NCBI GenBank assembly: GCA_026991575.1
Contig: JALXBF010000116.1
Location: 1 to 64,000, forward strand
Origin: Planctomycetota bacterium
GTDB taxonomy: Bacteria; Planctomycetota; Planctomycetia; JALXBF01
Length of the DNA stretch: 64,000 nucleotides
Direction: 5' to 3'
Part shown: piece by piece, positions 25,962 through 44,199 of the stretch
How positions within the stretch are numbered: the stretch's first letter is position 1
How the letters are laid out: every line of letters starts with the position of its first letter
Notes under the pieces: model-generated
The model's input: the letters and a program-made list of their open reading frames with translations, nothing else
Told to the model about the DNA's origin: nothing
The model's database searches: none
Position numbers and translations under genes: made by a program

Positions 25962-26162
25962 GTCGCGTCGGCCGCGATTGCGCTGGAGCGCGTTGTCATG
26001 CCGTGGTAAGATGATCTGGAGCGCCGTGGGCCGCACAAGGGGTCGGTCAAGCGGCGTGGGGAAAGAGCTGCGCACGGCATCAAGACGGGGCGGCTGAGTT
26101 GCTGGTGACTGCGTCCTGTCCGCGTGCCGCCGCGCAGCATCGGAGTTGAGCTGGAGGGGGAC

Positions 26163-28063
<1,901 letters not shown>

Positions 28064-28067
<4 letters not shown>

Positions 28068-29311
28068 GGAAGTGGGCCCTGATGGTCGTGTCGGCAGCAG
28101 CCGTCACGGTCGCCTCCTATCTGACAGGCCTTGCCCAGGACCGCGCCCAGCAGCCGTCAGCGGCGACCGGGAACGAGACTACTGGCCAACCGGCGCAGGC
28201 CCCGGCGGAGGAAACGGAGGATGAGCTAGTCATTGACGAAGCGGAGCTGGAAGCGCTCACGCCGGATCGGCCCGAGCAGTATGCCCTGGTGGCTAGCAAG
28301 TATCTTCGAGTAGCCCGGCCTGAAGCCGTCGAACTCTGCCTGCACCTGATGCGCATCGCGGCGACCCGTTGCCAGGGGGAGCTGAAGCAGCAGGCCCTCG
28401 TGTATATCGCCCTGATCGACCCCCATCCGAAGCGCGCGGCCGCGGCACGAGCCTGGCTCGCACGGATCGCCGACGAGGAGCTGCTCAAACAGATCGCCGA
28501 GCAGTTGCAGCAGAGCGGTCCGCCGCAGACGGTAGCCCAGCCGGACTACATTGAGGAGCTGCGTGAAGCTCTTCGCGCGGCCGTAGACCAGCAAAGCATG
28601 GCACCGCTGCTTGGGTACCGCGAGCGATCGCCTGAACATGCTGCCGTGCTTGCCCGGCTGTTCCAGCTGGCACCTGTCGTCGAGGAGGGCCTCCGCCAGT
28701 GGCAGCGTGCAGAGGGGGCACGAAGCGGCGCGCAGCTTGCTAAGGCGGGTACAAAGACTGCGGGCCGGAGGTGCCGGACGTGCAAGGGAACAGGCAGGGA
28801 GGAGTGCCCACGTAAGAACTGCAGGCGGGGCACAATCTTCTGCCCCCGGTGCCACGGCAGGGGCGCGATCACCACCATAGTGCAGGACTCTGTGGTCGTC
28901 ACCGACCCCGGACGCAACGTTCGTGTTGCCGTTCCCCGCAGCCGTAGAGTGCGCGTCACCTGCCCTCGCTGCGGCGGCAGAGCTCGCTGGGCCTGCACCG
29001 AGTGCCGTGGAAGGGGGTACGTGGGACCATGCAAGCGGTGCGGTGGAACCGGCCGGATCGGCGCCAAGAACGCTGGCTTCCCTGGCTTTCCGTCACAACC
29101 GCCTTCGACTGCAGGGAAGCTGGACGTGGTCCTGCGCACCGAACTGGGCAACCTGGCGCAGTTCAAGCTTGATCGTCAGAAGCATCCGCTGTTCGTCGAC
29201 GCCTTGCTCGGCGCCGCCGAGCCGCTTCCCTGCTCGCCGCAGGCATACGAGGAAGTGCTCGCCGAACCACGTGTCTATCGTCGCGGTGGCCAGTGGGTTG
29301 AGAAACCGTGA
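28064..29311 (+). CDS. Exported protein with extended DnaJ-like CxxCxGxG zinc-finger region (cassette copy 1)
   Basis: ATGA overlap with kinase stop; signal peptide MRKWALMVV...GLA-Q; six Cys-pair motifs; clear paralogue at 33139. Confidence 0.85.
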
Positions 29312-29324
29312 CGTTCGGTTGCCT

Positions 29325-30917
29325 GTGGTTACGAATGTAAGCCCACAGTTGGTCTTGACGGACGAGCAGGCCGGGAGCAAGTGGGAGCTGTCGCCTCCCG
29401 TTGCCTGGCTCGGCGTTTGCGCCAGCGATGGTAGACCGAGGGCTGCCTCGGACCCAGCAGTGCTCAGCACAGTCTTTGCCCAGATCTGGTTCGACAAGCG
29501 CTCCGGCTGGCATCTCTCCCCACTGGGAGACGTTCTGCTCAACGGCCACGCCGTGCGCAGCGCGGTACCGCTTTGCTTAGGCGACCGGCTGCTCGTGCAC
29601 GGGCACACGCTACGTGTGTCTGTACCCGGGCCCGGGGGGTCCTCAGGCACGTTGGTGCCGACCACCCATGCCGCGGCTCTGTCACTACTGCGGTCGAGGT
29701 GGCGCCAATTGCTGCTTGTCTGGGCCCTGTTTGCTGGCGGGGTCTTGTTGGGAGTGATCTTGACGGCCTTGCTCGTCACCCGTTTCTCCGCCCACGCAAC
29801 GCTGGTTCACGCACCGCACTCCGGTCAGCCCGGCACCGGAAAGCAGCGTGCTGAGCTGCGACAACCAGCAAAGCAGCCGCAGAACCACGCCGGCGGCGGG
29901 AAGCGGGACGAGCAAAGAGGGGACGAGGCGGCCGGAGGTAAGCAGGGCCGCAACGGCAAGGAACACGGAAAGGTTCAAGAAGAGCCCAGCCACGAGGCTC
30001 AGTCCGGGACTGAGCCCGGCGACCAGCCGGACCGAGAGCGCACGGGGCGGGAGGCCCCAGCGGACGGGCCAAGCGATCCTGCGCCCGCGGACCAAGTCGA
30101 AGGGGGGCAAGCAGGACAGAACGAACCACAGGCCAATCGGCCGCCTCGCCAAGGCAGGCATGACGCTGAGCAGGAAGCCGATGAGCCCGAGGAGAGCGAC
30201 GATAACGTGTTGCCCTTTGAGCCGTTGCGACCGGCGCCCGAGTTGCCCCAGTGGCTGCGGCGTAGTGAGCTACCAGTCTGCTTGCTCCGAGTCCCCGGCG
30301 CAGGTCAAGACGCCGTTAGTCTGCTCTGGCCGGTGGGGCCCCACTCGCTGCTTGTCTCCAGCACAACCGCGAGGCGGATGCTGGAGTTGCTCGAGGACCC
30401 GCGGTATGGTGCCGAGTTCCGTGTCGTGTCAAACACCAAGGTAGTCGGCCTTGGCCTATTGTTGGAAAAGCCCACCTTTCGAGCTACCGCCGACTGGATA
30501 TCCCTCGGAGTCATCCGCACGCAGAGACCGCACCGGTTTAGGGTCCCCCTTTGTCCTCCTAGGCAGTTTCCTCGGCCTGGCGAACCAGTGCGTGTCGTCT
30601 TGCCGTTGGAGTGGCCCAATTCACCACCGGCCCAGCATCTGCGGATGCGGATTGGGTGCACTCAGGGCCGGGTGCTGGCGGTCCGCCGCGGCGGTTTGCC
30701 ACGGTGGGTGCTCTTTGTCGAGCTACCCGACGAGGGCACCGCCCGATACATCCGCAACGCGCTGATCGCGTCTCCGGCGGTGATCGACAGCGAGGGCCGG
30801 CTCGTTGGACTCTGTTCGGAGTTGCCCCATAGGCTGGAAGTCACTGCGGAAATCGGTGCGCGCAGGTTGCGTCGTGTCGTGGGCGCGCTGTTCTGGTACC
30901 GGGTGTTCGCACCATAG
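29325..30917 (+). CDS. Degenerate FHA-like domain + TM + degenerate trypsin-like domain protein (cassette copy 1)
   Basis: GWHL...LLNG...PLCLGDRL FHA-like strands, TM, low-complexity linker, C-terminal domain paralogous to the 34362 gene; start uncertain (TTG 29319 or GTG 29325). Confidence 0.75.
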   Translation: MVTNVSPQLVLTDEQAGSKWELSPPVAWLGVCASDGRPRAASDPAVLSTVFAQIWFDKRSGWHLSPLGDVLLNGHAVRSAVPLCLGDRLLVHGHTLRVSVPGPGGSSGTLVPTTHAAALSLLRSRWRQLLLVWALFAGGVLLGVILTALLVTRFSAHATLVHAPHSGQPGTGKQRAELRQPAKQPQNHAGGGKRDEQRGDEAAGGKQGRNGKEHGKVQEEPSHEAQSGTEPGDQPDRERTGREAPADGPSDPAPADQVEGGQAGQNEPQANRPPRQGRHDAEQEADEPEESDDNVLPFEPLRPAPELPQWLRRSELPVCLLRVPGAGQDAVSLLWPVGPHSLLVSSTTARRMLELLEDPRYGAEFRVVSNTKVVGLGLLLEKPTFRATADWISLGVIRTQRPHRFRVPLCPPRQFPRPGEPVRVVLPLEWPNSPPAQHLRMRIGCTQGRVLAVRRGGLPRWVLFVELPDEGTARYIRNALIASPAVIDSEGRLVGLCSELPHRLEVTAEIGARRLRRVVGALFWYRVFAP

Positions 30918-31180: not shown

Positions 31181-33109
31181 ATGGCAACGCAAGAGCGGCG
31201 GCGTACGTTCGCCAATGGCCGCTACCGCCTCGAGAAAGTCCTGGGTAGTGGCGGCATGGCGACGACGTACTTGGCATGGGACAATGTCAATCGAAGTCGC
31301 GTCGTGATCAAGGTGCCGCGGCGGTCGGTGTTCCGGGACGCGGCCCATATCCAGCGTTTTGCCCGCGAAATGCGCACGCTGAGCGAGTTGAGTCACCCGC
31401 ACATCGTGCGCATCCTCGACTCGGGTGTCGAGCAAAACCTCCCCTTCTACGTCATGCAATATCTGCCTGGGGGATCGCTCGAAGATCGCATGCGACCAGG
31501 TGGGGCGCCAGCGCGGATCTTTCCCCCCGAAACCGTGCATGCGTGGCTGGCTCCTATCGCTGCCGCGTTGGACTACATCCATGCCCGTGGCATCGTTCAC
31601 CGTGATGTGAAACCGGGGAACATCCTCTTTGACGAACAAGAGACCACCCACTTAGCCGACTTCGGGCTGGCCAAGGCGATTCGCGCAGACGAACTGATGC
31701 CATCGGACACCCTCACGGCCGCTGGCATCGTGATGGGCACCCCACGCTATGTTGCCCCTGAGATCGTCCAGGGGCACCGTCCCACAGGCCATTCTGACCA
31801 GTACTCCCTAGCCGTGACGGCCTACGAGATGCTTGTCGGACGGCCACCGTTCGATGCTCCGGCCTCTTCGGTGCTGGTACTTCATGTTAGCCAGCCGCCA
31901 CCGCCGCCCAGCAGCTGGGGGGTGCAGCTTCCACGCGCTCTGGACGCGGTCATCCTGCGCGCACTGGCCAAGGACCCACGTGAACGCTATCCGACTTGCA
32001 CTGCGTTCATGGATGACTTCTACCAGGCCCTGGCCTACGGCGTCGCCGCGGCAGCGCCGCCGGTGAGTACGACCGTGGCAATGGACCTCAGCACGCTGCC
32101 AACTGCACCGGTCAGCCGGCCGCGGCGCCTTTCGAGGAGGGTCACGCAAGCCGGCCGCCCCTGGGTGTATGCGGCCGTATCAGCAGCCGCTACCGCGATC
32201 ATCTTTCTGGTCCTTGGCGGCTTCCGGATGCTGTCTCAGCATCAGCCGAACCCGGCTTCCGCCGATGGCACCGCACAGGTAGCGGACCGTGGTGCGGAAG
32301 CGAACAGCGCAGACGAGGAGCTTTCAGGCTTGGAAGGCTCCCGGGGCGGCTCGCGGCACTCGTCCACCTCAGCCGGTGCCGAACCCGCCCCGCTCAGCAG
32401 CAACTCGTCCGCTCCACTGGCGGCAGTGACTGCCACTGTGGAGCGATTGCTGCGGAAAGCCGAGATGCGCAGGCCGCTTCGCGACCCACTCATCGGCCCG
32501 GAATTTGCCGAGTTAGGCAGGTACGCGGGCTATCGCTGGGTAGCTGTATTTGCCAGCGGAGCGGTCCTTCGGCTGCGCCCGCATGAAATGCAGGCATTGG
32601 AGGCCGAGGTCGGGCGGGAACTGGAAATGGACCCCGGCCGGGGCGAGAACCCGGATTCGGCTACGGTGCAGGCAATCGGCAGGGCATTTGCGCGCCAACT
32701 ACGCCTTCTCGGAATGCCACCGGCGCGCACACCACGTACTCCAGACGAACTGACCAGAGCCATGGACTTGGTCACCGCCCAGGTGGAACGGATGTTACGT
32801 CGCGACCTTCTCGACGCGCAAGCAGCACGAAGGTTCGGTGAAGAAGTCGATTGGTACAAGCGCGAACTGCAAGCAATGGAGCCAGCCGCGGCAGGCGCCT
32901 TCCAACGCTTGGTACTTGACCAAATGCTGCTGTGTCGCCAGCTGCTACTCGCCGTACAGTTTGCGGTTCCAGAGCAAGCTGAGGTCGCTGGCTCGCTATG
33001 GCAGCAGGCTGAGGAGTCGTTGGCCGAGTGCCTGACGGTCGGCCAGCAACTGGATGTGTTGGGTCCGCTGGAGGTACAGCTGTGGCTGCAACTAACACAT
33101 GCCCCGTAA
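31181..33109 (+). CDS. Hanks-type Ser/Thr kinase with TM and unknown extracytoplasmic helical domain (cassette copy 2)
   Basis: LGSGGMA, VVIK, HRDVKPGN, DFGLA, GTPRYVAPE; TM WVYAAVSAAATAIIFLVLGGF; GGGGAG RBS. Confidence 0.93.
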   Translation: MATQERRRTFANGRYRLEKVLGSGGMATTYLAWDNVNRSRVVIKVPRRSVFRDAAHIQRFAREMRTLSELSHPHIVRILDSGVEQNLPFYVMQYLPGGSLEDRMRPGGAPARIFPPETVHAWLAPIAAALDYIHARGIVHRDVKPGNILFDEQETTHLADFGLAKAIRADELMPSDTLTAAGIVMGTPRYVAPEIVQGHRPTGHSDQYSLAVTAYEMLVGRPPFDAPASSVLVLHVSQPPPPPSSWGVQLPRALDAVILRALAKDPRERYPTCTAFMDDFYQALAYGVAAAAPPVSTTVAMDLSTLPTAPVSRPRRLSRRVTQAGRPWVYAAVSAAATAIIFLVLGGFRMLSQHQPNPASADGTAQVADRGAEANSADEELSGLEGSRGGSRHSSTSAGAEPAPLSSNSSAPLAAVTATVERLLRKAEMRRPLRDPLIGPEFAELGRYAGYRWVAVFASGAVLRLRPHEMQALEAEVGRELEMDPGRGENPDSATVQAIGRAFARQLRLLGMPPARTPRTPDELTRAMDLVTAQVERMLRRDLLDAQAARRFGEEVDWYKRELQAMEPAAAGAFQRLVLDQMLLCRQLLLAVQFAVPEQAEVAGSLWQQAEESLAECLTVGQQLDVLGPLEVQLWLQLTHAP

Positions 33110-33138
33110 CCCGGTCCGCGATCCGCTGGCTATGCTCC

Positions 33139-34326
33139 ATGATGGCCGTAGGGGGGGTGCTCTGGTTCGCCGGCCCGCCAGCCGTTCCGCAAGAGCCGCC
33201 CGGTGGGCAGCGGTCGGCAGAGCTGCCATTGCCAACCGCTGATCGAACGACAGAGTTCGACGAAGTAGAGCTGGACGAACGGGAACTGGAACTGCTCTCG
33301 CCCGATTTCCCCGACGGCTATCTGGAAGCCGCTCGGAAGTATCTGCAGTACGACTCGCCTGAAGCGCAGGCAGTCGCCAATCACCTGCTGCGTGTGGCTG
33401 CAACGTTGTGCCGCGGCGAGAAGCGTGCCGAAGCGCTTGCTTTGCTTGCCTTCTCAGACCCGGACCCGCTCCGGGCAGCCGCAGCACGCGCCTTGCTCAT
33501 CCATAGCCGAAGTGAACTGGCTCGCGCTGCCCTCGAGCAGCTTCGCAACCAAGCAGTCGCCGCAACCGGGCGGACCCGCGAGGAGCAGAACGCCCTCCTG
33601 GTCGGCCTACACAACGCACTTAGCGAATCGGTTGCCAATGGCACGCTGGCACCCCTGGCAGCCTACCGCGAGTCGTCGCCGAGCGCCGCTGCAGTAGTGG
33701 ACCGGTTGCTTGCAACCGAGCCGATCGTCCGGCAACACTTCCACGAGTGGCAACGTATGCAACAGGTTTCGTTAGCGGCTGAAGTGCGCACGGCGAGCGA
33801 CCAACGACAGGGCAGAAGGAAGTGCGCCACATGTGGGGGAACCGGAGTTCAGGATTGCCCCATTAAAGCCTGCCATAATGGCACGGTCCGTTGTCCAAAG
33901 TGTCGTGGGGCTGGCTTCCGGACCCGCATCGTTACCGTCCGGCGCGTTGTTTCGTTGCCGACTGGCGGCAGTATTCCCGTACCGGAAAGAAGACGCGTGC
34001 ACGAGCAATGTCAAGCCTGCAAAGGACAAGCCCGATGGCTCTGTACCGTTTGCAAGGGCCGCGGCAACATCGGCCCGTGTCCGGAATGCGGTGGCCGCGG
34101 TAAGCGAGAACAGGTGGCTGCAATGCCCAGGTGGCACATGCCTGCCGATGTGAAACGGAGGCTGTCCCAGATTGCCCAGAGACTAGATGGTCAGTCTCAT
34201 CCGATCTACGTGCAATACCTGCTGGCCGGTGGCCATGCGATTCCCTGCACCGTGAGAGACTATGAGCGGGTGCTGCGCGAGCCCCGCGTATACCGACGTG
34301 GCGGTCTCTGGGTCCAGCAGCCGTAG
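33139..34326 (+). CDS. Exported protein with extended DnaJ-like CxxCxGxG zinc-finger region (cassette copy 2)
   Basis: CATCGGTG, CPIKACHNG, CPKCRGAG, CQACKGQA, CTVCKGRG, CPECGGRG; ends EPRVYRRGGLWVQQP; start may be at 33106 (see findings). Confidence 0.85.
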   Translation: MMAVGGVLWFAGPPAVPQEPPGGQRSAELPLPTADRTTEFDEVELDERELELLSPDFPDGYLEAARKYLQYDSPEAQAVANHLLRVAATLCRGEKRAEALALLAFSDPDPLRAAAARALLIHSRSELARAALEQLRNQAVAATGRTREEQNALLVGLHNALSESVANGTLAPLAAYRESSPSAAAVVDRLLATEPIVRQHFHEWQRMQQVSLAAEVRTASDQRQGRRKCATCGGTGVQDCPIKACHNGTVRCPKCRGAGFRTRIVTVRRVVSLPTGGSIPVPERRRVHEQCQACKGQARWLCTVCKGRGNIGPCPECGGRGKREQVAAMPRWHMPADVKRRLSQIAQRLDGQSHPIYVQYLLAGGHAIPCTVRDYERVLREPRVYRRGGLWVQQP

Positions 34327-34361
34327 CGGACCGGCCGAACCTGCAGCCGGGAGAGGAGTTG

Positions 34362-35792
34362 GTGAGTTCAACGCTGCCGTCCATTCTGATCGAAATCAAG
34401 AACACCGGACAGCAGGTCACCGTACACGCCCCGGGGGGCTGGATCGGTCGCGAAGTCGACTGTGTAGTACGGATTCCTCCTCGCGAGTTCCCCACCGTTG
34501 GGCGGCATCACGCACAGCTCCTGTACGACCCATTGCACGGCTGGCAGCTGATCGGCTTGCACCGCAACGGCACGGCGGTCAACGGGAACCCGGCCACCTA
34601 CCCGATCCCGCTTCAAGTCGGCGACGTCATCGAGCTGTCTCAAGGCACCGTGTGTCTGGTCGTGCGTCAGACTAGCGGCCCGGCTGCCTCGGGTGGCCAC
34701 TCGCTTGCAGGTCAGCTCTCCCACCGGTCCAACGGACTCGACGCCGCACCGGCCACTGCGGCTGTTTCCAGTAGTGGTACGCCGACTACCCCGCCGCCAG
34801 CTACCGCTCCGTGGGGCCCTCCCTATGGCCCCCCTCAGCCGGCAACTCCAGACGGAGGCAGTGCAGCGCCTGCCTCGCCCGCCACCGGGCCTGCTGCCAG
34901 CTCCCAGGGGCATCGCCCCGTCATCCTCGCCGTTGCCCTGGCCGCGGGCGTCGCCGCCGGCGTCCTTCTGACCCTGTTGGCCTTGCTCTGGCCCCGTGCT
35001 GATGACGCAGTGGATGGTGCCACAACGAAGCAAGCGGGCTCACACCAAGGAAGGACCAACACGGTGTTGGAGGCTGACTGGTCCCCGCCGCATGTTGATT
35101 CTGCAATCGAAGCCAGCCGTGACCGGCTCAGGTCGATGGACCTGCCGATCTGTATCGTCCGGGTGAAGGCCGAAGGCGAGCTGCGCTTCCCCCACACGTT
35201 GCTGTGGCCCATCGGCGAGGACCAGTTTCTGGTCTCCTCCGCAGCCTTCCGTTCGCTGCAACAAGTGACGAGCGTCGAGGACTTGCCAATGACGCTAAGT
35301 CCCGCTTCGATCCGCCAGCCTAACTCCCCGGTGGGATCGCTCCTGTTGAAGGATCCGCCCGCTGGTTCAGACTGGATTCTCGCTGCGACGCTGCAGACCC
35401 GGCGTCCCCACCGCTGGTCCCTGCCACTTTGTCCGCCCGACAAGTGCCCGCAGCCCGGCGACACGGTCTTCGTCGTGTTCTGCCCGCACGGCGGGGAAAA
35501 AATGGTTGCGGGCACGAAACTGCCTCTGATCGCCTATCCTGCGCGCGTCGGCACCATGGTACACGACGGCATTCCTCCGAAACTGGTGCTATTCCTCGTG
35601 CTGGAGAGCGAGGGCCAAGTCTTGCGTCTGCTAAAGTACCTGGAAGCGTCACCGGGAGTATTGGACACCAGACAGCGTTTCGTGGGAATCCTCTCGGTTG
35701 TCCCGCCTGAGCTGGCAGCCCAAGCACAAATCCCGAAGGAAATCGTCAAGCACGTCGTTCCCGCGGTCTTCTGGCAGTCGGTTGTTTACTAG
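34362..35792 (+). CDS. FHA domain + TM + degenerate trypsin-like domain protein (cassette copy 2)
   Basis: WIGR..C, VGRHHAQL, HRNGTAVNG, LQVGDVIEL; Pro/Ala linker; TM; GAGAGGAG RBS. Confidence 0.85.
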   Translation: MSSTLPSILIEIKNTGQQVTVHAPGGWIGREVDCVVRIPPREFPTVGRHHAQLLYDPLHGWQLIGLHRNGTAVNGNPATYPIPLQVGDVIELSQGTVCLVVRQTSGPAASGGHSLAGQLSHRSNGLDAAPATAAVSSSGTPTTPPPATAPWGPPYGPPQPATPDGGSAAPASPATGPAASSQGHRPVILAVALAAGVAAGVLLTLLALLWPRADDAVDGATTKQAGSHQGRTNTVLEADWSPPHVDSAIEASRDRLRSMDLPICIVRVKAEGELRFPHTLLWPIGEDQFLVSSAAFRSLQQVTSVEDLPMTLSPASIRQPNSPVGSLLLKDPPAGSDWILAATLQTRRPHRWSLPLCPPDKCPQPGDTVFVVFCPHGGEKMVAGTKLPLIAYPARVGTMVHDGIPPKLVLFLVLESEGQVLRLLKYLEASPGVLDTRQRFVGILSVVPPELAAQAQIPKEIVKHVVPAVFWQSVVY

Positions 35793-35983
35793 CCGGTGCA
35801 AGACGGGGGTACGGAATCTCGCGAGCCCCCAGAGGGTCTGACGCGACCAACACTGTTCCCCGGTGCGGTTGCCGTAACCACCGGTGGCGCTGTCAGAGCC
35901 ACCCTGACACCAGGGGTGACCGAGACGGTGAAATGTCGTAAGATTGTGTGCGCAAAGGCAACAGCGGCCAAAAGGGGGTCATC

Positions 35984-37156
35984 ATGGTGAGAATCGTGAC
36001 GTGGTGTTCCGCAGTCCGCCGCACGGTCGTGTTGACAAGCATTTTCCTCTGTTTCCTGGGCTCATTGCCCGCGGCAGCCCAGTTGCAACCGCGGCGGGAT
36101 CTGGGTTTCCCACTTAACCTCTGGCTGGGCGGCGGTGGCGCGGTTGGGTATCCACCCGCAGCGGCCATGCCCAACACACCGATGCCTTTCGGCATACTCT
36201 CGCAGTTCGATCCGGCAACGATGTACCTGGCACCACGCATCCTCCGCCAGCTCGCCATCCTGAACGTCGCCCGGTACGACGCCGAAGTCGGGCGTTGGCG
36301 CGGCATCGCCATGCAGGAACTGGCCGAAGGTATTGCCGCGATGAGTGAGGCCCGAGTTAAGTGGTTCGAGAGCCTCCTGAAAGTGCACCACCTGCGGCGC
36401 AAGCTCCTTGAGGCCAGGATAGACACCTACCTGGAGAAGCAGCAGAAGTTCCGGGAGGCTTACCGCAAGCGAGCCCAGAACCCTCAGACACTGGTGCCCA
36501 GCGAAACCGAAGCCAATTACCTCCTGGCAGAACTGGCGCCGACGATCATGAGCGCCATGACGTTGGGTGACACCACCCCCATCCAAATGGCCGAGAGAAT
36601 CACCTTCACCGATGACGAACTTCGCCACATCCGTGTCGCCGACAGCCAGTACAAGAGTCGTGGGCGTGTGGAGTGGACGCTGCAAGGCGGGGAGGTGATG
36701 TCGCTTCAGTGGCCGGTCCTGCTCAGGGACAAACAATTCGAACCGTTGCGCCGCGAGATCGAAACGCTACGCGACAAGATGCTCCGCGAACTCCAAGAAG
36801 ACGGCAGCGTCCGCAAAGAGACCTATGACGCAATGCTTGCCGCGCTCGACCGGCTGGACCGCGCAATCACGGAAGTCTTCCCGCTGTACAAGGATCAACC
36901 GCTCGGGCCCGAGCAACTGGCGCGAGTCCATGCCAGACAGTTCGTACGGTTATTGAAGTTCGGCACCGTCCGCCTCGCGTCACTACGCGACACCTCCGTG
37001 TTGCGTCTGGCCGGCTCGTTCAAGGGCAACACGCTGGCCGACATCCTGAAGTACATGGTGTCGCACGGTCTAGTGTTCGCGGCGCCCAAGCCCGGTGACG
37101 AAGCAGCCTATCGCAAGCTGATCGATGCGCTGCGCCGCGTGTACCTGTCGCTCTAA
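35984..37156 (+). CDS. Exported hypothetical protein (helical, planctomycete-type)
   Basis: Signal peptide ending PAAA-Q; long ORF with coding-like composition; candidate promoter GTGACC-N17-TAAGAT at 35916-35944. Confidence 0.8.
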   Translation: MVRIVTWCSAVRRTVVLTSIFLCFLGSLPAAAQLQPRRDLGFPLNLWLGGGGAVGYPPAAAMPNTPMPFGILSQFDPATMYLAPRILRQLAILNVARYDAEVGRWRGIAMQELAEGIAAMSEARVKWFESLLKVHHLRRKLLEARIDTYLEKQQKFREAYRKRAQNPQTLVPSETEANYLLAELAPTIMSAMTLGDTTPIQMAERITFTDDELRHIRVADSQYKSRGRVEWTLQGGEVMSLQWPVLLRDKQFEPLRREIETLRDKMLRELQEDGSVRKETYDAMLAALDRLDRAITEVFPLYKDQPLGPEQLARVHARQFVRLLKFGTVRLASLRDTSVLRLAGSFKGNTLADILKYMVSHGLVFAAPKPGDEAAYRKLIDALRRVYLSL

Positions 37157-37997: not shown

Positions 37998-40900
37998 ATG
38001 GGAAAGCGAGCCGGTCGCAAGAGTCGACTGAACCGGTTTGAAGCCCTCGAAGAACGCGTTCTGCTCTCGCTGTTGTTCACCGGTGACCAGGCGTTGGCAC
38101 GACTCGGCTGGTCCACGTCTTCGGTGGGCAACGTGCTGGACGACCGGGCCAGGGATCTGGAGGGGCAGGAGCTTCTGATCGGTGAGCCATTTCGCGACGA
38201 GCCCGGACGTATCGATAGCGGGGCGGTCTACTTGATCTTCGGCGGTGAGCACCTTGGCACCGACGATCAACAGGGGGCTTTTAACCCACGCAGTGACCAG
38301 GCCGCCGTTGAGATTGAAGAGGTGCTGCTGGCCGCCAACGGCATCCGGTTCATCGGTGCAACCGCTGGCGAGTGGGCCGGCTACAGTGTCGCGTCGGTCG
38401 GAAACGTCATCGGCGGTCCGGGCGATGATATTCTGATCGGTGCCCCCGGTGCCGACTGGACGAGCGGTCTGCCCGGCCGCGTCTACCTGATCGGGGACGA
38501 CCTCATCGAAACCGTTTACCGCCGCGCCGTCGCAATCCTGGCAGCCGGCGACGACCTGGAACTCGATGACGTCACCATCGACCTTAGCACCCTCGACCCC
38601 GCCACCTGGAACCCAGCCAATGGCTCGTTCGTCATCTTCGAAGGCGCTAACGCCAACGATCGCGTCGGCTTTGCCGTCGCAGGTATTGGCGACCGGTTCT
38701 TCGTCATCGGCGCTCCGGGCTACGAGCAGGAGGGCGAAGCGGCGCAAACGAACCGTGGCGCCGTCTATGTGATCCACCCGCGGGAGTATCTGTACGAAAA
38801 CCAACTCATCCGGCTCACCCAGAGCGAACTCGTCAACACTGGACGGGGCAATATCTTGATTGGCCCAGAACCGGGTGCCTATTTTGGTAGCAGCGTGTCG
38901 GGCATCGGCGACCCAATCGTCAATTCCGGCGGGACACCCTTCAGTGTAGACGGGGAGCCCGAGCCAGATTTTCTCATCGGCGCCCCGCACGTGACGCTGG
39001 ACCGCTACTACCGCCGAGTTATTCCGCTCCTGGGTAGCGGTCGCGGTACGGTGTACGTGGTACCCGGTGTGTATACCGCGGATCAGGCCATCTCGGACGT
39101 GTTCGATTTCTCCGACCCGGGAACGCTTCAAACCCTCGGTGTCGTTCCCGTGCGGCGGCCAGCAGGGGTCGATTACCTGGGAGCCAATGTGAGCCAAGCA
39201 GGGGACCTCGACGTCGACGGCCTGCCTGACTTCATGTTCTCCGCCCCTGCGGTCGACGGCGGAGCGGGTCGGGTTTACGTCGTGTTCGGTCGGGAGTTCG
39301 GCGACACTTTTGTGGCCGGTCCTCAGGCCACGCCGATCAACCCGGACTCTTTCCCAGGTCGCATCGGCCTCACGCTCAATGGCGCGTCGCCCGGTGAGAA
39401 TGCAGGGGTCGGCCTCAGTGGCGGTATCAACGCCGGTGATCCGAACATCCGTCGACGTGGCGACGATATCTTCATCGGGGCACCGTTTGCAGACATAGCT
39501 CGCCCGGGACAGCCAGCCCTGATCGAAGCCGGTCGGACGTACGCTATCTTGGGCACGCCAGATTTCCAGGACCGCTCCGGTGATGTCATCAACCTTGTCG
39601 ACCTGCTCAGCGAATCTGAGGAAGGCGTGGTCCTGAGCGGGCGAATGACCGACCAATGGTTCGGCTTCTCGATAGCCGCTCTCGGCAACGTCTACGATTT
39701 TCCCGGTATCCCGACCCTGGATTTCATCGTCGGCGCTCCGGAAGCAACAACCGTGCGGAACAACGCGCCGATCACGGACGCAGGCGAGGCAGAACTGTTC
39801 TTCGGCATCCCAGGCCTTCTGCCCCTGCTGCCTTTCCGACGCGGCCTTGCGCCCGGGGCTGGTACGGTCTGGCAACCAGACCCGGCCCTGCCCACCGTCA
39901 TCTTTGCAAACGGCTTTGCCAGCATGCGCATGCTGTCGACGCTAACCGGTAAGATCGAAGCCGATCAGACCGGTCTCTTCGGCGACGATCTTTTCGTCAT
40001 CTCGCGCGGCTTACCCCAGCAGACCGACGGCATCCTGCCGCCGATTGGACCGGACGTCATCGGCACGGTATATCGCGTCGATCCGTACGGAACGCTGGCC
40101 ACTACCGTCGGTACCATCAGTGCTGCTGACAACCGCCGTGTCTTCGGTATCGTGCCCGGAACCGAGGCCGGTGTCGACGAGGACCTGTACCCATACCAGT
40201 TCGACATCGCCTTCGATATCAACGGCCGTTACAACCGGCTCTTCGGCGAACCGGTCATGTTTGTCAGCGTGGCAGATCGAGATGCCACCGGCTCGTTTAA
40301 CCCGCAGAATGCCATCTACGCTTTCACCCCCTCGGGCAAGCGGTACCTGTTCGCCTACTCGGCACGTGATGCCGACGGTGACGGTCGGCTCGACAACGTC
40401 CCGGCAGCAATCGCCGTAGCGAACGATCCATCGTTCGGTCAAGACCTGTACGTTATGGACGGCGTAGACGACGACTTCTACCCGGCTCCCGAGCCTGGTC
40501 AGCCTGTTCCCGACGAAGACGGTAACGTGCTGTACCGGGTCAGCCCCGAAACAACCTACCCGGTTAACCTCGACGCAACCGCCGTCCTACACCCGCGCAC
40601 CGAGATCACTCTGCCGGAACTATTCGCACCGCCCAACGACGAAGACATCCTCCCGCTGGCCAATCCGCGCGACATGGACGTGCGCGCCATGGTTTTCGAC
40701 CCCAACGCCAACCTGATCCAAGGGGGCCAGTACGGTACGCCGGCTTACCGATTCTATGGCGGGCTGTTCGTAGCCAGCAGCGATGTCCGTGGTGGTGAAA
40801 ACGGGCTGACCCGCATTCTCCACTACCCAACCTTGTCCACTCCCCCGGTGGACCTGATCGGACCGCGGTCAATCCTTGAGAACCCGAACATCACCGGCAT

Positions 40901-43900
40901 CAACGCGCCGCCGATGCTAATCGGCGACATGGCATTTGATCGCGTCGGATTCTTTGGCGGCGGGCTCTTCGTGACCGACTACCAGAGCAAAGCCGTCTAT
41001 CAGATCCAGATCGATCCGAGGACCGGTAACGTCATTCAGCGGCTGTTTGCCGTTGGCTTCAACGTCCCAGACCCGGACCCTGACGTCGACGAGACCCCGA
41101 CAGAGGCAATCGCCGAGGCGCTTGCGACGCCGTTTTCGATCACCTTCTCCCGCGACGGGCAGGTCGTATTTGTTTCCGACGCTGACGGGATCTGGGCCTT
41201 CTACGCCAACACGCTTGCCCATTCCCCTGCAGGCGCCATTGTCGGGCTCACCGACGTGCGGGAAGCACGCATGCCTTACGACGGCGCTGGCTTCGGCGCA
41301 GCTGTCATTGATTCTGGCGTCGACGGCGATCACCTCGGTTTCATGGGCACGGTAACCCCTGGTTTCGACCCGGTCAGCACCGCACCGGGCAATGTCGACC
41401 CGGACGGCCACGGCACCGCCGTCGCCGGCATCATCCACCAGATCGTGCCCGAGGCCGTCATCGTGCCGGCGAAATTGCCAGGCATTGTCCGCGACGCGGA
41501 GAGCCTGTACCAAGCCGTTCGCTGGGTACGTCAGAACCCGTTCACGGACGACCCCCGCACGTTGCGGCGAGAACGATACCCAATTGTCGCGGTCAATATG
41601 TCCCTCGGACTGCGAGCACCGGATGATCCGGACACCAACGTCGACAGCGATCTCGATGCCGTGCGGTTGAACAAGACCGAAGCGATCCCCCTGAAGTACG
41701 AATTCCGCCGCTACTACAAAGCCCACCGGTATGGCATCGTGCCCGTGGCCGCAGCCGGCAACGAGGGTATGCAGTGGAACGGCGATGACGGTAGCAGTGT
41801 GCCTGCCGTGCTGAACGAGGTCGTCGAGGTCATCGCGTCGTACCCGTACGGACCTGTGCCCCCGGGGACGCCTCCCCCGATAACCTCCGACCTGATCGTG
41901 CGCTGCGAGCTCGAGCTCGGTGACCTGATCGCGTTTCCCGGGAAGATTACTGCCTTCTCGAGCCGGAACGTGGTCAGCGACTTTGCGGCACCAGGGACCT
42001 GCGTCAACACGTTCGGTCGGTCGCTGCTGGGGCTGGAAGGCGGGTCAGCCAACGACTACTTCGGCATGGCCCCCATCTATCCGTTTTTCAACGGTACGTC
42101 CGCCGCGACTCCGTTTGTTACCGGAGCCTTCGTGTTCGGTTATGACGTTGTAGACACGTGGGCCAAGCTGCGGCGCCGCGGCGGTCGACTGTCCTGGCGC
42201 GACCAACAGCTGGGAGAACTCTTCGAATACCTGGTGCGTCCGTTTGCCTCCGCGATCCGGCCCGAAGACGTGCGGATCGAGATTCCCCGTGCGGCCATCC
42301 CGCGATTTGAGGCCTACCTGAACCCTCACGGCATCAACTCGCTGCTTCAGTGGACCGCCGTACCGCGTGAGGATGTCAACATCGGGGAGAGCTACGAGCA
42401 GCCTACCGGCTCGGATGACCTCATCCAACAGCGCCGGCTCCTGTTCAGTGACCGGTATCGCACCTATTCGCACCTCAACATCGCTCAACTCGCTTACGCC
42501 GTCGAAGGCAGTGTGGCGTTCCGGTACTTTGACCTCAGGCGTGACCAGTGGGAGTTGCTGCTGCGGGCAGCCGGCACGCCGGGACGTTTGACGCTGGATG
42601 ACATCGATGCCTTTGTCGCCGACCCGGTCAACGATCCCACCGCCCGGGCTATGGCGGCCCTGCTTGGCAGCGCGAAACGCGTCGCCGGGATCAACCGGTT
42701 CCGCTTCTATGACCTGGTTGCGGACGGGCGGCCGGATGATGCGATCGGGCGACGCCAACTGAAACGGATCATCCGCAACCTGCTGCCCGGCCCGACGGCG
42801 TTCCCGATCACGAACCGGTGGAAGGCGGCGCGGAAGGGTTATGCCATCGACCGGACAGCATTGCGGAACTATCACGACCTGATCTACTTGAGACGCGACG
42901 CCATGGTCTGGGACCGACTGCCCCCGGCCTGGCGGGACAAGTCTCCGGCCCAGCTGTCCCGAGGAGTTCGTCGGTTGAGCCTGATCGAGTTCCTGCCAGT
43001 CGAGCCGCAAGAGGGCCCTGGGACAGGCGTCACGGATGCCTACGAGCTGCGTGACGACACGGGAAACGCCGTCGGACAACAACTCAGCGAAGCCATCCTT
43101 GTCCAGCCGGGGCGTGATTCCGTCGCCCAGGCCTCAACCACTCAGGGTATGGTTGTGGTCGGGGTGCGGCCGGCGATGGGCCAGTCCGTCGAACTGCGTG
43201 TGTTCCGCAAGACGGCGGATGGTCAGTGGCAGCTCGTGGAACGCGATGTGAGCCCGCTGGCGGAAGCTGCCGTTGGTGAGCTGCTGGTCGGCGAGGTCGA
43301 CGCACAGCTGCGCGTCTACGGACTCACGGCCGATGGTAAGCTGGCCATCCACGTTGTAGGCCAACCCGGCTGGTTAACGGTGGAGCCGGCGTTCCCTGCG
43401 GGCCACGACGGCGGGCTGCGTACGCTTGGTAGCCTGTTTGTGCAGCCGGGCGCGCCGGACGCCGTCCTGCTTACGGCTACCGACCGCCTCGGCCATGTCG
43501 TGGAGTTGAGCGTCTTGGGCGAAGCATGGAGCGTGCAACACGTCGGCCCTGGCGGCAGCATTGCGTCGTTGCTTGGCCGGGAGCCGGTTCCGCTTCGTCG
43601 GGAGGACGGGTCCGAGGTGGGCGGCGGCAAGCTGCTGTACGTCGTCGACCGTCATGGCCGCTTGCGTGAGCTGCGCTACCGGCCGACCCAAGGCTGGTCT
43701 GCTGATGTGCTGCGTGATCGGCAGGGGCGCGCGGTCGTTGTCGATGGCGTCCTGGCTGCCTATGAGCTGACCAACAGCCGTGGCCGCAAAGAACGTCACC
43801 TGCTTGCACGCGGCAAGAACGGCGAACTGGTCCACCTGCGTCGGCGGGCGGGCTACTGGCAGATCGTCCGACCTCGATTGCCGGATGGCCATCGGAAGAT

Positions 43901-44168: not shown

Positions 44169-44199
44169 GCTTCCTGGGGCCACCCGGAGTGGGAAGCGA

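What the first reader, a model, noticed from the sequence alone, without database searches (positions are those of the whole stretch)
28772..29052. Six-motif DnaJ-like zinc-finger hairpin inside a protein with a signal peptide
Seen: CRTCKGTG, CPRKNCRRG, CPRCHGRG, then a Val/Arg-rich insert (ITTIVQDSVVVTDPGRNVRVAVPRSRRVRV), then CPRCGGRA, CTECRGRG, CKRCGGTG. The same 3+insert+3 pattern occurs in the paralogue (about 33823-34101), and there is no J-domain HPD. Known: DnaJ has four such motifs, nested to bind two Zn in a long hairpin. Inference: a three-site rod presenting a variable, basic beta-hairpin tip that could be the specificity determinant. If exported to the oxidising periplasm, the 12 Cys could act as a redox or metal switch.
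Basis: partly seen in the sequence, partly recalled or inferred. Interest (0 to 1): 0.7.

Follow-up and report, generated by a model that had tools for sequence, protein, structure and literature searches.

The report
Exported six-motif DnaJ-like zinc hairpin protein
Two neighbouring genes encode secreted proteins carrying an unusually long DnaJ-type zinc-finger hairpin with twelve invariant cysteines, each sitting between a membrane protein kinase gene and an FHA-domain gene, so they probably act as the outside-the-cell partner of that signalling pair.

Summary
At 28772-29053 the + strand encodes six Cys-pair motifs, three on each side of a 36-residue insert, and the paralogue repeats this at 33823-34101. 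Motif 2 is C-x4-C, not CxxC. All 12 Cys are invariant in 41 of 41 zinc-bearing relatives.

The proteins have no J domain. A has a classic Sec-type signal peptide, and so do 19 of 21 aligned family members. After it come a TPR-like domain, the hairpin and a conserved C-terminal YRRGGxW tail. A profile of the hairpin matches solved DnaJ-type cysteine-rich domains: EMB2737 7.7e-6, BSD2 1.2e-5, DnaJ 5.3e-4. It stays under Pfam's cut-off.

Each copy is the middle gene of a duplicated cassette: membrane Ser/Thr kinase, zinc protein, FHA membrane protein. The same order recurs in a distant genus of the phylum.

Best reading: an extracytoplasmic adaptor or co-sensor of the kinase-FHA pair, built on a rigid rod with three zinc sites.

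The "oxidising periplasm" premise is weak: no DsbA, DsbB or VKOR was found in this 97.8%-complete genome. This is a new variant of a known domain kind, of moderate interest.

The parts
26124..28067 (+). Ser/Thr protein kinase 1. Kinase domain, one TM helix (aa 330-348), then a ~300-aa extracytoplasmic helical C-terminal domain.
   Evidence: Pfam Pkinase 7.8e-49. One hydrophobic helix. The stop codon overlaps the ATG of the next gene.
28064..29311 (+). Zinc-hairpin protein A (ZnP-A), 415 aa from ATG 28064. An upstream ATG at 28040 is also open.
   Evidence: ORF. ATGA overlap with the kinase stop. Only two matches in the own genome.
28064..28135 (+). Predicted Sec signal peptide of ZnP-A (aa 1-24, MRK + hydrophobic core + GLA|QD).
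   Evidence: Heuristic. The same layout occurs in 19 of 21 aligned family members. SignalP was not available.
28235..28663 (+). TPR-like helical domain (aa ~58-200).
   Evidence: The family profile A3 hits TPR proteins over profile positions 75-168 (designed TPR 2.9e-14, OGT TPR 1.9e-6). Pfam TPR_20 is only 0.066 for A alone.
28772..28864 (+). N-terminal half of the hairpin: motifs 1-3 (C237/C240, C248/C253, C260/C263).
   Evidence: Cys invariant in 41 of 41.
28865..28960 (+). Hairpin tip. Val/Arg-rich, central DPGRN turn. An amphipathic beta-hairpin is inferred from the sequence.
   Evidence: It aligns to the beta-hairpin between motifs 2 and 3 of DnaJ and BSD2.
28961..29053 (+). C-terminal half of the hairpin: motifs 4-6 (C300/C303, C311/C314, C323/C326).
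29270..29308 (+). Conserved extreme C-terminal tail (RVYRRGGQWVEKP).
   Evidence: G409 invariant and W411 in at least 90% of rows in A3. A tail with [G/K/N]-x-W in the last 11 residues occurs in 40 of 46 family members, by eye from the tails printed (strict regex 31 of 46).
29319..30917 (+). FHA-like membrane protein 1. Degenerate FHA N-domain, TM helix, low-complexity linker, ~235-aa ectodomain (30210-30914).
   Evidence: The N-domain is 24% identical to the FHA domain of copy 2 (E 9e-6), with no Pfam FHA hit. TM helix. The ectodomain resembles trypsin-like peptidases by language-model features only (0.97). Pfam and hhalign are negative.
31181..33109 (+). Ser/Thr protein kinase 2 (paralogue, 39% identical to kinase 1).
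   Evidence: Pfam Pkinase 1.1e-46. Paralogy. TM helix.
33082..34326 (+). Zinc-hairpin protein B (ZnP-B). The start is uncertain (GTG 33028 or 33082, ATG 33139). The hairpin lies at 33823-34101.
   Evidence: The database form P0002 starts at 33082. It has a hydrophobic N-segment but no clear AxA cleavage site.
34359..35792 (+). FHA membrane protein 2: FHA, TM helix and ectodomain.
   Evidence: Pfam FHA 1e-9. TM helix. The ectodomain is 36% identical to that of copy 1.

Best explanation
ZnP-A and ZnP-B are Sec-exported proteins without a J domain. They belong to an uncharacterised family that is probably restricted to Planctomycetota.

Their layout, from the N-terminus:
1. signal peptide
2. acidic linker
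3. TPR-like domain
4. an extended cysteine-rich hairpin of the DnaJ/BSD2 type
5. a conserved [Y/F]RRGGxW C-terminal tail

In the hairpin, six Cys pairs most likely form three nested Cys4 zinc sites (3+4 distal, 2+5 middle, 1+6 proximal). This would make a rigid antiparallel rod about one zinc site longer than DnaJ's. It ends in a long, basic, amphipathic beta-hairpin.

Each gene is translationally coupled between two others. Upstream is a single-pass membrane Ser/Thr kinase with an extracytoplasmic domain. Downstream is a single-pass membrane protein with a cytoplasmic FHA domain.

I think the zinc protein is the extracytoplasmic adaptor or co-sensor of this kinase-FHA module. Its TPR domain, rod and tail would bind a periplasmic or envelope ligand, or the kinase ectodomain. 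That binding would set kinase activity, which the FHA protein reads inside the cell. The zinc would be structural, as in DnaJ and BSD2.

Shown: the motifs, their conservation, the homology to DnaJ-type cysteine-rich domains, the signal-peptide layout, and the gene order with its recurrence. Inferred: zinc binding, the three-site nesting, physical contact with the kinase, and the direction of signalling.
For: Motifs and conservation:
- The motifs were read directly.
- All 12 Cys are invariant in 41 of 41 zinc-bearing members. Six pairs within 96 residues arose in 1 of 20,000 shuffles.

Homology to DnaJ-type domains:
- The hairpin profile A7 against PDB sequences gives EMB2737 8xku_R 7.7e-6, BSD2 6ekb 1.2e-5, DnaJ CR 1exk 5.3e-4 and DNAJA3 2ctt 9.7e-4. 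In the BSD2 alignment, motifs 2, 3, the insert and motifs 4, 5 lie on its four motifs and hairpin; the DnaJ and DNAJA3 alignments start at motif 1.
- Related hairpin proteins pass Pfam PF00684's cut-off of 32.7 bits: P0026 46.2, P0005 34.3, L031 33.7.

Export:
- 19 of 21 aligned members have a basic n-region, an uncharged h-region and an AxA-type site.
- The kinase and FHA proteins each have one TM helix, placing large domains outside the cell.

Operon:
- The kinase stop and the ZnP start overlap as ATGA. The FHA gene starts 8 nt after the ZnP stop.
- The whole cassette is an old duplication that kept its order. The pairs are 39%, 40% and 32% identical.

Recurrence:
- In genus g206 (same phylum, another class) the order kinase(TM, TPR ectodomain) > ZnP orthologue > FHA(TM) was seen by Pfam in L038 and L048.
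- By tblastn, the kinase C-terminus lies upstream in 7 of 7 orthologue loci, and FHA lies downstream in 6 of 7.

TPR plus cysteine-rich hairpin recurs in other proteins of the phylum.
Against: - No structure model could be made, so the three-site rod is extrapolated from two-site homologues.
- A and B score only 18.0 and 16.7 bits on PF00684, against a cut-off of 32.7.
- Most family members are not next to a kinase or FHA gene. Arrays of 3-6 paralogues in g206 lie beside beta-CASP, GAF-GGDEF and RimK genes. Members without the hairpin follow two large unknown genes.
- On the quick tree the kinase-linked label needs two changes. A single origin is not excluded, but it is not shown either.
- The kinase ectodomains differ between the two lineages (helical against TPR), and the g206 FHA proteins have no ectodomain. 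No single conserved partner surface is evident.
- ZnP-B lacks a clear cleavage site.
- No metal, localisation or expression data exist.
Confidence: 0.45

Rival explanations
1. A stand-alone periplasmic holdase or thiol-disulfide oxidoreductase. The hairpin would bind unfolded envelope proteins or shuffle their disulfides, as reported for DnaJ's zinc domain and for J-less DnaJ-like zinc-finger proteins of chloroplasts. The kinase/FHA neighbourhood would be incidental or merely regulatory.
For: - Homology to DnaJ and BSD2 cysteine-rich domains.
- Deleting DnaJ's zinc domain abolishes its thiol-reductase activity, and the domain contributes to polypeptide binding (PMC4428491, abstract and passages).
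- PSA2 is a thylakoid-lumen DnaJ-like zinc-finger protein discussed as a protein disulfide isomerase (PMC4806229, passages).
- ZnJ6 is described as a thylakoid DnaJ-like chaperone with oxidising activity (bioRxiv 10.1101/2020.09.14.296681, listing abstract only).
- TPR plus cysteine-rich hairpin looks like a co-chaperone.
- The genome lacks DsbA, DsbB and VKOR, which would leave room for another thiol catalyst.
- Many family members are not kinase-linked.
Against: - Tight translational coupling inside the kinase-FHA cassette, retained through an old duplication and in a second lineage.
- No activity data exist.
- Motif 2 is C-x4-C in A and B, and several motifs lack the thioredoxin-like context.
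Confidence: 0.2
2. Oxidation, or a change in zinc availability, empties the three Cys4 sites. The rod unfolds or forms disulfides, and this state is passed to the kinase.
For: - Twelve invariant Cys sit in an exported protein.
- The organism respires oxygen: COX1 gives four matches.
- The gene lies in a signalling cassette.
- Zinc-thiolate redox switches are established in other proteins (Hsp33, RsrA; recalled, no call).
Against: - Nothing here tests it.
- The genome shows no dedicated periplasmic oxidase, so the premise of an oxidising periplasm is not supported for this organism.
- Two of 5 other genomes that carry the family do have VKOR, so the family is not confined to one redox setting.
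- Relatives without the hairpin keep the TPR domain and the tail. The core function of the family therefore does not need the Cys.
Confidence: 0.12
3. The twelve Cys form six structural disulfides and bind no metal. The result would be a cystine-stapled rod.
For: The domain is extracytoplasmic and the organism is an aerobe or microaerobe.
Against: - The CxxCxGxG signature, with its conserved Gly (G242, G265, G267, G319, G328), is that of zinc knuckles.
- The profile matches zinc-binding solved domains.
- No DsbA, DsbB or VKOR was found.
Confidence: 0.1
4. The protein is not exported. The N-terminal hydrophobic stretch would be an artefact of the start-codon choice, or a cytoplasm-facing anchor.
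For: - The start of ZnP-B is uncertain and it lacks an AxA site.
- No SignalP was run and no experiment exists.
Against: - Signal peptides with A-x-A|D sites occur in 19 of 21 family members, including very clean ones in g206.
- The basic residues precede the hydrophobic core. So even an uncleaved anchor would put the protein outside.
Confidence: 0.05

Closest known systems
DnaJ central cysteine-rich domain (Pfam PF00684; solved as 1EXK, 1NLT, 2CTT)
   Same: - CxxCxGxG zinc-knuckle repeats arranged as N-half, beta-hairpin, C-half.
- The profile of the window's hairpin hits 1exk at 5.3e-4 and 2ctt at 9.7e-4.
- The domain is an antiparallel beta-sheet with two Cys tetrads binding two Zn (PMC4428491, passages).
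   Different: - Six Cys pairs instead of four.
- Motif 2 is C-x4-C.
- The tip is 36 residues long.
- There is no J domain, G/F region or C-terminal client-binding domains.
- The protein is exported instead of cytosolic.
- Scores are under the Pfam cut-off: 18.0 and 16.7 bits against 32.7.
J-less DnaJ-like zinc-finger proteins of plastids: BSD2 (6EKB), PSA2, LQY1, ZnJ2/ZnJ6; EMB2737 (8XKU chain R) and Moc50
   Same: - A cysteine-rich domain without a J domain. BSD2 1.2e-5 and EMB2737 7.7e-6 are the best solved matches.
- Some act outside the main reducing compartment. PSA2 is in the thylakoid lumen (PMC4806229). Moc50 is in the intermembrane-space module of the chloroplast import motor, as an intertwined scaffold (bioRxiv 10.1101/2024.09.02.610899, passage).
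- This is precedent for such a domain in a periplasm-like space.
   Different: - Those proteins have two zinc sites (four motifs) and are eukaryotic organelle proteins with transit peptides.
- None has the TPR-like domain plus the YRRGGxW tail.
- None is encoded in a kinase-FHA operon.
- Pfam BSD2_CRD does not hit A or B.
TagR/TagQ-PpkA-Fha1 threonine-phosphorylation pathway of the Pseudomonas aeruginosa H1-T6SS (functional analogue only)
   Same: A periplasmic accessory protein acts on the ectodomain of a membrane Ser/Thr kinase, whose cytoplasmic read-out is an FHA protein (PMC13713981, abstract). This is the same logic as proposed here.
   Different: - No sequence relationship was tested or is claimed.
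- No T6SS genes flank the cassette.
- TagR has no zinc hairpin (recalled).
Anti-TRAP (Pfam PF15777; 2BX9)
   Same: A small DnaJ-CR-like zinc knuckle protein. Weak hits of 18.4 bits and 0.051 against 2bx9.
   Different: - Below the cut-off of 32 bits.
- One zinc site per chain.
- Cytoplasmic regulator of TRAP.
- Unrelated context.

Membership tests
DnaJ central cysteine-rich domain (PF00684 DnaJ_CXXCXGXG) | Repeated CxxCxGxG motifs flanking a beta-hairpin | tested here: met
   Six Cys pairs arranged 3+insert+3. Four are full CxxCxGxG, one is CxxCxGxA and one is C-x4-C.
DnaJ central cysteine-rich domain (PF00684 DnaJ_CXXCXGXG) | Score at or above Pfam's gathering cut-off (32.7 bits) | tested here: not met
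   A scores 18.0 bits and B 16.7 bits. Related hairpin proteins P0026, P0005 and L031 do pass.
DnaJ central cysteine-rich domain (PF00684 DnaJ_CXXCXGXG) | Significant profile similarity to solved members | tested here: met
   Profile A7 against PDB sequences: 1exk 5.3e-4, 2ctt 9.7e-4, BSD2 6ekb 1.2e-5, 8xku_R 7.7e-6.
DnaJ central cysteine-rich domain (PF00684 DnaJ_CXXCXGXG) | Nested Cys4 zinc sites in an antiparallel hairpin fold | not testable with these tools
Metal binding needs an experiment.
Class A J-domain protein (DnaJ/Hsp40) | N-terminal J domain with an HPD motif | tested here: not met
   No PF00226 hit at E<=0.1. No HPD tripeptide in A or B.
J-less DnaJ-like zinc-finger proteins (BSD2 type, PF25436 BSD2_CRD) | Cysteine-rich domain without a J domain, matching the BSD2_CRD model | tested here: inconclusive
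   The J-less architecture is met. There is no BSD2_CRD hit for A or B at E<=0.1. The hairpin profile does hit the BSD2 structure sequence at 1.2e-5.
Sec-exported proteins | N-terminal signal peptide with a basic n-region, hydrophobic h-region and small residues at -3/-1 | tested here: met
   Own heuristic. A meets it with GLA|QD. So do 19 of 21 family members. B has an h-region but no AxA site. No trained predictor (SignalP) was available.
TPR repeat proteins | Significant match of the helical domain to TPR models or structures | tested here: inconclusive
   The family profile A3 hits TPR structures over positions 75-168 (2.9e-14 designed, 1.9e-6 OGT). A alone gives only TPR_20 at 0.066, below the cut-off.
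Anti-TRAP (PF15777) | Score at or above the cut-off of 32 bits | tested here: not met
   18.4 bits.
TagR-type periplasmic activators of PpkA | Sequence or fold relationship to TagR | not tested
   Used only as a functional analogy (PMC13713981 abstract).

The most novel reading that the evidence does not exclude
The family is a previously unrecognised class of extracytoplasmic sensor subunits for bacterial eukaryote-like Ser/Thr kinases. An exported rod with three zinc sites would report the metal or redox state of the periplasm, or envelope-protein stress. It would signal through its TPR domain and C-terminal tail to the kinase ectodomain and to the trypsin-like pseudo-protease ectodomain of the FHA protein. 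This would make zinc-thiolate chemistry outside the cytoplasm an input to phospho-threonine signalling.
Probability: 0.12. Interest if true: 0.75.

Novelty: new variant of a known kind. Interest (0 to 1): 0.5.

Why it matters
DnaJ-type cysteine-rich domains are known as two-zinc modules of cytosolic and plastid chaperones. Here the same module is lengthened to six invariant Cys pairs and placed behind a signal peptide, fused to a TPR-like domain. It is wired, twice in one genome and again in a distant genus, between a membrane Ser/Thr kinase and an FHA protein.

If the reading holds, it gives three things:
- a bacterial precedent for Cys4 zinc fingers working outside the cytoplasm
- a candidate ligand-binding subunit for kinases whose inputs are almost entirely unknown in this phylum
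- a compact, testable system of three genes that can be expressed heterologously

If only the structural part holds, it is still a new, well-conserved and unannotated protein family. Copy number reaches 13 matches in one genome.

Tried and rejected
- **Structure prediction.** There is therefore no model and no fold search.
- **Complex prediction.** Complex prediction of the kinase-1 ectodomain (A6 residues 55-298) with ZnP-A (A3 residues 52-415) gave ipSAE 0.01 and 0.00. The verdict was "no answer". This is no evidence either way.
- **Word-indexed protein searches.**
  - With A alone, the search found only the query.
  - With A2, it found 4 proteins.
  - With A3, it found 6 proteins.
  - Each search scored only the 8000 best candidates, so they say little about family size.
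- **Related loci.**
  - With alignments A2, A3, A4 and A8, the search for related loci failed for lack of a conserved stretch.
  - With P0016 and P0003, it found nothing in genome contigs or metagenome contigs.
  - The gene context of A and B's nearest relatives therefore stays unknown.
- **FHA-protein ectodomain as trypsin-like.**
  - hhalign against P0010 gave probability 0.07%.
  - hhalign against the L046 Trypsin_2 domain gave 0.18%.
  - Pfam at E<=10 gave nothing.
  - The PDB profile search had a best hit of 0.13.
  - Only the language-model atlas supports the idea (0.97), so it is kept as a lead.
- **Expression.** No RNA holder was listed. The DNA holders are labelled hydrothermal vent metagenome, and the only full holder may be the source sample.
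- **Earlier findings of the scan.** Nothing relevant turned up.
- **NCBIfam.** No family passed its cut-off for A or B.
Full report
**What is there.**
- The + strand ORF 28040-29311 (most likely start ATG 28064) encodes a 415-aa protein, here ZnP-A.
- Read directly, residues 237-330 carry CRTCKGTG, CPRKNC, CPRCHGRG, a 36-residue insert, then CPRCGGRA, CTECRGRG and CKRCGGTG.
- Motif 2 is C-x4-C, not CxxC, and four of the six motifs are full CxxCxGxG.
- The paralogue ZnP-B (33082-34326) has the same 3+insert+3 layout at 33823-34101. It is 40% identical (E 2e-75).
- Neither protein has an HPD tripeptide or a J-domain hit.
- In 20,000 shuffles of A's own residues, six such pairs within 96 residues arose once.

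**The protein and its family.** Sequence searches with A alone find almost nothing.
- The word-indexed search returned only the query.
- An exhaustive HMMER scan of 1.84 billion representatives, using a profile of A+B, gave 23 proteins at E<=1e-3. Only A and B themselves were below 1e-30.
- Two of the 23, P0003 and P0016, are true full-length relatives. The others I read share only a multi-CxxCxGxG hairpin (3+3 or 4+4 motifs) in otherwise unrelated proteins.

Whole-genome searches with family alignments then uncovered a larger family.
- 36 of 401 sampled genomes of the phylum match at 1e-5. Some of these match only the hairpin.
- Genus g206 is greatly expanded, with up to 13 matches per genome. 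Tandem arrays of 3-6 paralogues were seen.
- The phylum is probably Planctomycetota. This rests only on the protein-atlas neighbours.

The family layout is as follows.
- A signal peptide.
- A small beta-rich N-domain, which is absent in A and B and replaced there by an acidic linker.
- A TPR-like helical domain. Profile A3 hits TPR structures at 2.9e-14 and natural OGT TPRs at 1.9e-6.
- The Cys hairpin.
- An extreme C-terminal tail of the type [Y/F]-R-x-G-x-W. A [G/K/N]-x-W lies in the last 11 residues in 40 of 46 members, by eye from the tails printed. A strict regex gives 31 of 46. The six exceptions are long forms with a C-terminal extension.

Some members keep the TPR-like domain and the tail but lack the hairpin entirely, with 0-1 CxxC. 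In the window's own class, 18 of 300 other sampled genomes have only this hairpin-less form and none has the six-motif form. The hairpin is therefore an insertable module in a conserved scaffold.

**Conservation of the Cys and of the tip.**
- All 12 Cys columns are Cys in 21 of 21 sequences of alignment A3.
- They are also Cys in 41 of 41 zinc-bearing members. Seven truncated rows and five hairpin-less rows were left out.
- Several knuckle glycines are conserved.
- The tip between Cys 6 and Cys 7 is 18-36 residues long and is the least conserved segment. Mean pairwise identity is 0.20, against 0.43 and 0.35 for the two zinc halves and 0.30 for the TPR-like domain.
- The linker after the hairpin is just as variable (0.21).
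- Between A and B the tip is 0.41 identical, no different from the whole protein.
- A and B have the longest tips. They are Val/Arg-rich with a central DPGRN or PTGGS turn, and have 7 and 8 K/R against 2 D/E. This reads as an amphipathic basic beta-hairpin, which is an inference from the sequence.
- The g206 array paralogues have short tips but carry a 62-72-residue insertion between motifs 5 and 6.

**Is it DnaJ-like?**
- Pfam gives only sub-threshold hits: DnaJ_CXXCXGXG 18.0 and 16.7 bits against a cut-off of 32.7, and Anti-TRAP 18.4 against 32.
- A four-sequence profile of the hairpin matches solved cysteine-rich domains: EMB2737 8xku_R 7.7e-6, BSD2 6ekb 1.2e-5, E. coli DnaJ 1exk 5.3e-4 and DNAJA3 2ctt 9.7e-4.
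- In the BSD2 alignment, motifs 2, 3, the tip and motifs 4, 5 are laid on its four motifs and hairpin; the DnaJ and DNAJA3 alignments start at motif 1.
- Other hairpin proteins recovered here pass the Pfam cut-off: P0026 46.2, P0005 34.3 (this one with a J domain) and L031 33.7.

DnaJ's domain is an antiparallel beta-sheet in which two Cys tetrads bind two Zn (PMC4428491, passages). That the tetrads are nested (motifs 1+4 and 2+3) is recalled from the 1EXK literature and was not read here. Extending that topology, motifs 3+4, 2+5 and 1+6 would form three sites along one rod.

**Export.**
- With the start at ATG 28064, which overlaps the kinase stop as ATGA, A begins MRK, then an 18-residue uncharged hydrophobic core, then GLA|QD.
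- A simple n/h/c heuristic finds this layout in 19 of 21 aligned members. Many have very clean A-x-A|D sites.
- The two exceptions are B, which has a hydrophobic core but no AxA site and an uncertain start, and P0003, which looks N-terminally truncated.
- There is no twin-arginine motif, so export would be of the unfolded chain. Zinc would have to be acquired outside the cytoplasm.

The genome is 97.8% complete.
- It shows no DsbA (PF01323), VKOR (PF07884), Thioredoxin_4 (PF13462) or DsbB (PF02600). The same searches did find these families in the control genomes.
- It has four COX1 matches.
- Among five other genomes carrying the family, none has Thioredoxin_4 and two have VKOR.

The "oxidising periplasm" premise is thus not supported for this organism, but the picture is mixed across the family. 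There is precedent for DnaJ-like zinc fingers outside the main reducing compartment:
- PSA2 in the thylakoid lumen (PMC4806229, passages).
- Moc50 in the intermembrane-space module of the chloroplast import motor, described as an intertwined scaffold (bioRxiv 10.1101/2024.09.02.610899, passage).

**Gene context.** Each zinc protein is the middle gene of a three-gene cassette.
- The upstream gene is a Ser/Thr kinase (Pfam Pkinase 7.8e-49 and 1.1e-46). It has one TM helix and an outside domain of about 300 aa.
- The downstream gene starts 8 nt after the ZnP-A stop codon. It encodes an FHA domain, one TM helix, a low-complexity linker and a 235-250-aa outside domain.
  - Pfam finds FHA at 1e-9 in copy 2.
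  - Copy 1 is degenerate but homologous (E 9e-6).
  - The other parts of this gene are supported.
- The two cassettes are old duplicates with parallel divergence: kinase 39%, ZnP 40% and FHA protein 32% identity.
- The cassette flanks are unrelated. Upstream are trpC and envelope glycosyltransferases, downstream are subtilase and FG-GAP giants, and there is no PP2C phosphatase.

The same order recurs in genus g206.
- There the order is a kinase (with TM helix and TPR ectodomain), then the ZnP, then an FHA protein with a C-terminal TM anchor. Pfam shows it in L038 and L048.
- By tblastn, the kinase C-terminus lies upstream in 7 of 7 orthologue loci, and FHA lies downstream in 6 of 7.
- On a quick maximum-likelihood tree (46 rows, with seven truncated rows dropped), A+B are sisters (99) and group with P0003+P0016 (98).
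- The g206 kinase-linked clade is sister to the g206 array clade.
- The kinase-linked label needs two changes on this tree, and one origin is not excluded.

Most family members are not kinase-linked.
- Arrays lie beside beta-CASP, GAF-GGDEF and RimK genes.
- One member is followed by a Trypsin_2 protein (L046).
- Hairpin-less members follow two large genes, which are unknown or carry TPR repeats.

**How it most likely works.** All three products put domains outside the cytoplasmic membrane, and the genes are translationally coupled. I therefore read the zinc protein as the extracytoplasmic adaptor or co-sensor of the kinase-FHA pair.
- Its TPR-like domain, rigid zinc rod with basic tip, and conserved C-terminal tail are all protein-binding elements.
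- They could dock a ligand or the kinase ectodomain and so set kinase output, which the FHA protein reads inside the cell.
- The logic resembles periplasmic TagR acting with TagQ on PpkA, with Fha1 as the read-out (PMC13713981, abstract). This is an analogy, not a homology claim.
- The single complex prediction gave no verdict and is not counted either way.

Their evidence is listed in the Rival explanations section.

**A lead worth noting.** By language-model features, the outside domain of the FHA proteins resembles trypsin-like peptidases (score 0.97, recognition 2913, all ten best named hits in one clan).
- Pfam, hhalign and PDB profile searches see nothing.
- By eye the catalytic His position is not conserved. 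This is my reading of alignment A5.
- Two other observations point the same way. P0010 fuses a signal peptide, a 3+3 hairpin and a weak Trypsin_2 match (0.0063). In L046 a family member is followed by a Trypsin_2 protein (2.6e-25).
- This hints that the hairpin proteins work with periplasmic trypsin-fold domains. It is unproven.

**Verdict.** The protein is very probably exported, and it is a homologue of DnaJ-type cysteine-rich domains with six instead of four motifs.
- The three-site rod and zinc binding are inferred.
- The link to kinase-FHA signalling rests on conserved gene order in two lineages.
- It is a new variant of a known domain kind, inside an unannotated family. No Pfam or NCBIfam model passes its cut-off.
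- I found no paper on such exported bacterial proteins in three full-text searches.
- Interest is moderate.

Noticed in passing
window 26124-30917 and 31181-35792: The whole three-gene cassette (Ser/Thr kinase, zinc-hairpin protein, FHA membrane protein) is duplicated in tandem. The pairs are 39%, 40% and 32% identical, which points to an old duplication that kept gene order.
   Followed up: yes
window 30210-30914 and 35040-35789: The extracytoplasmic C-terminal domain of both FHA proteins matches no Pfam model. A protein-language-model atlas puts it next to trypsin-like peptidase clusters (0.97). By eye the catalytic His is missing, so it may be a pseudo-protease.
   Followed up: partly
window 29319-29702: The FHA domain of cassette 1 is degenerate. 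Pfam does not hit it, and the positions of the usual GR and SxxH signatures read GV and STVF. It is still homologous to the FHA domain of cassette 2 (E 9e-6).
   Followed up: partly
L036:4326-12191 (G248), L035:429-7193 (G336), L037:5130-9114 (G351): Tandem arrays of 3-6 paralogues of the family occur in genus g206. Each has six Cys pairs, a short tip and a 62-72-residue insertion between motifs 5 and 6. The arrays lie beside beta-CASP metallo-hydrolase, GAF-GGDEF and RimK genes. One genome has up to 13 family matches.
   Followed up: partly
L042:8209-9129, L043:7914-9023, L044:8273-9148, L003:1186-2289, L004:1120-2247: Some family members keep the signal peptide, beta-domain, TPR-like domain and C-terminal tail but lack the zinc hairpin (0-1 CxxC). 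In L042 and L043 they follow two large genes of about 890 aa (TPR) and about 1200 aa (unknown). In L044 a single large unknown gene (769 aa) directly precedes the member.
   Followed up: partly
P0010 (635 aa); L046:7854-12533: P0010 fuses a signal peptide, a 3+3 hairpin, a weak Trypsin_2 match and a C-terminal TM helix. In L046 a family member is directly followed by a 1059-aa Trypsin_2 protein.
   Followed up: no
whole genome G000: No DsbA, DsbB, VKOR or Thioredoxin_4 was detected in a 97.8%-complete genome that has four COX1 matches. This would be an aerobe or microaerobe without a recognised periplasmic disulfide-forming system.
   Followed up: partly
P0004, P0006, P0008, P0009, P0014, P0017, P0019, P0022, P0023, P0030: Many unrelated bacterial proteins carry extended 3+3 or 4+4 CxxCxGxG hairpins between an N-terminal soluble domain and C-terminal TM helices. 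This is a widespread class of longer-than-DnaJ hairpins, apparently unstudied.
   Followed up: no
window 35948-37156; 37998-44168; 44149-47358: Downstream of the cassettes lie a 402-aa protein with no Pfam match and a hydrophobic N-terminus, a 2056-aa protein with S8 subtilase and FG-GAP domains, and a 1069-aa FG-GAP protein.
   Followed up: no
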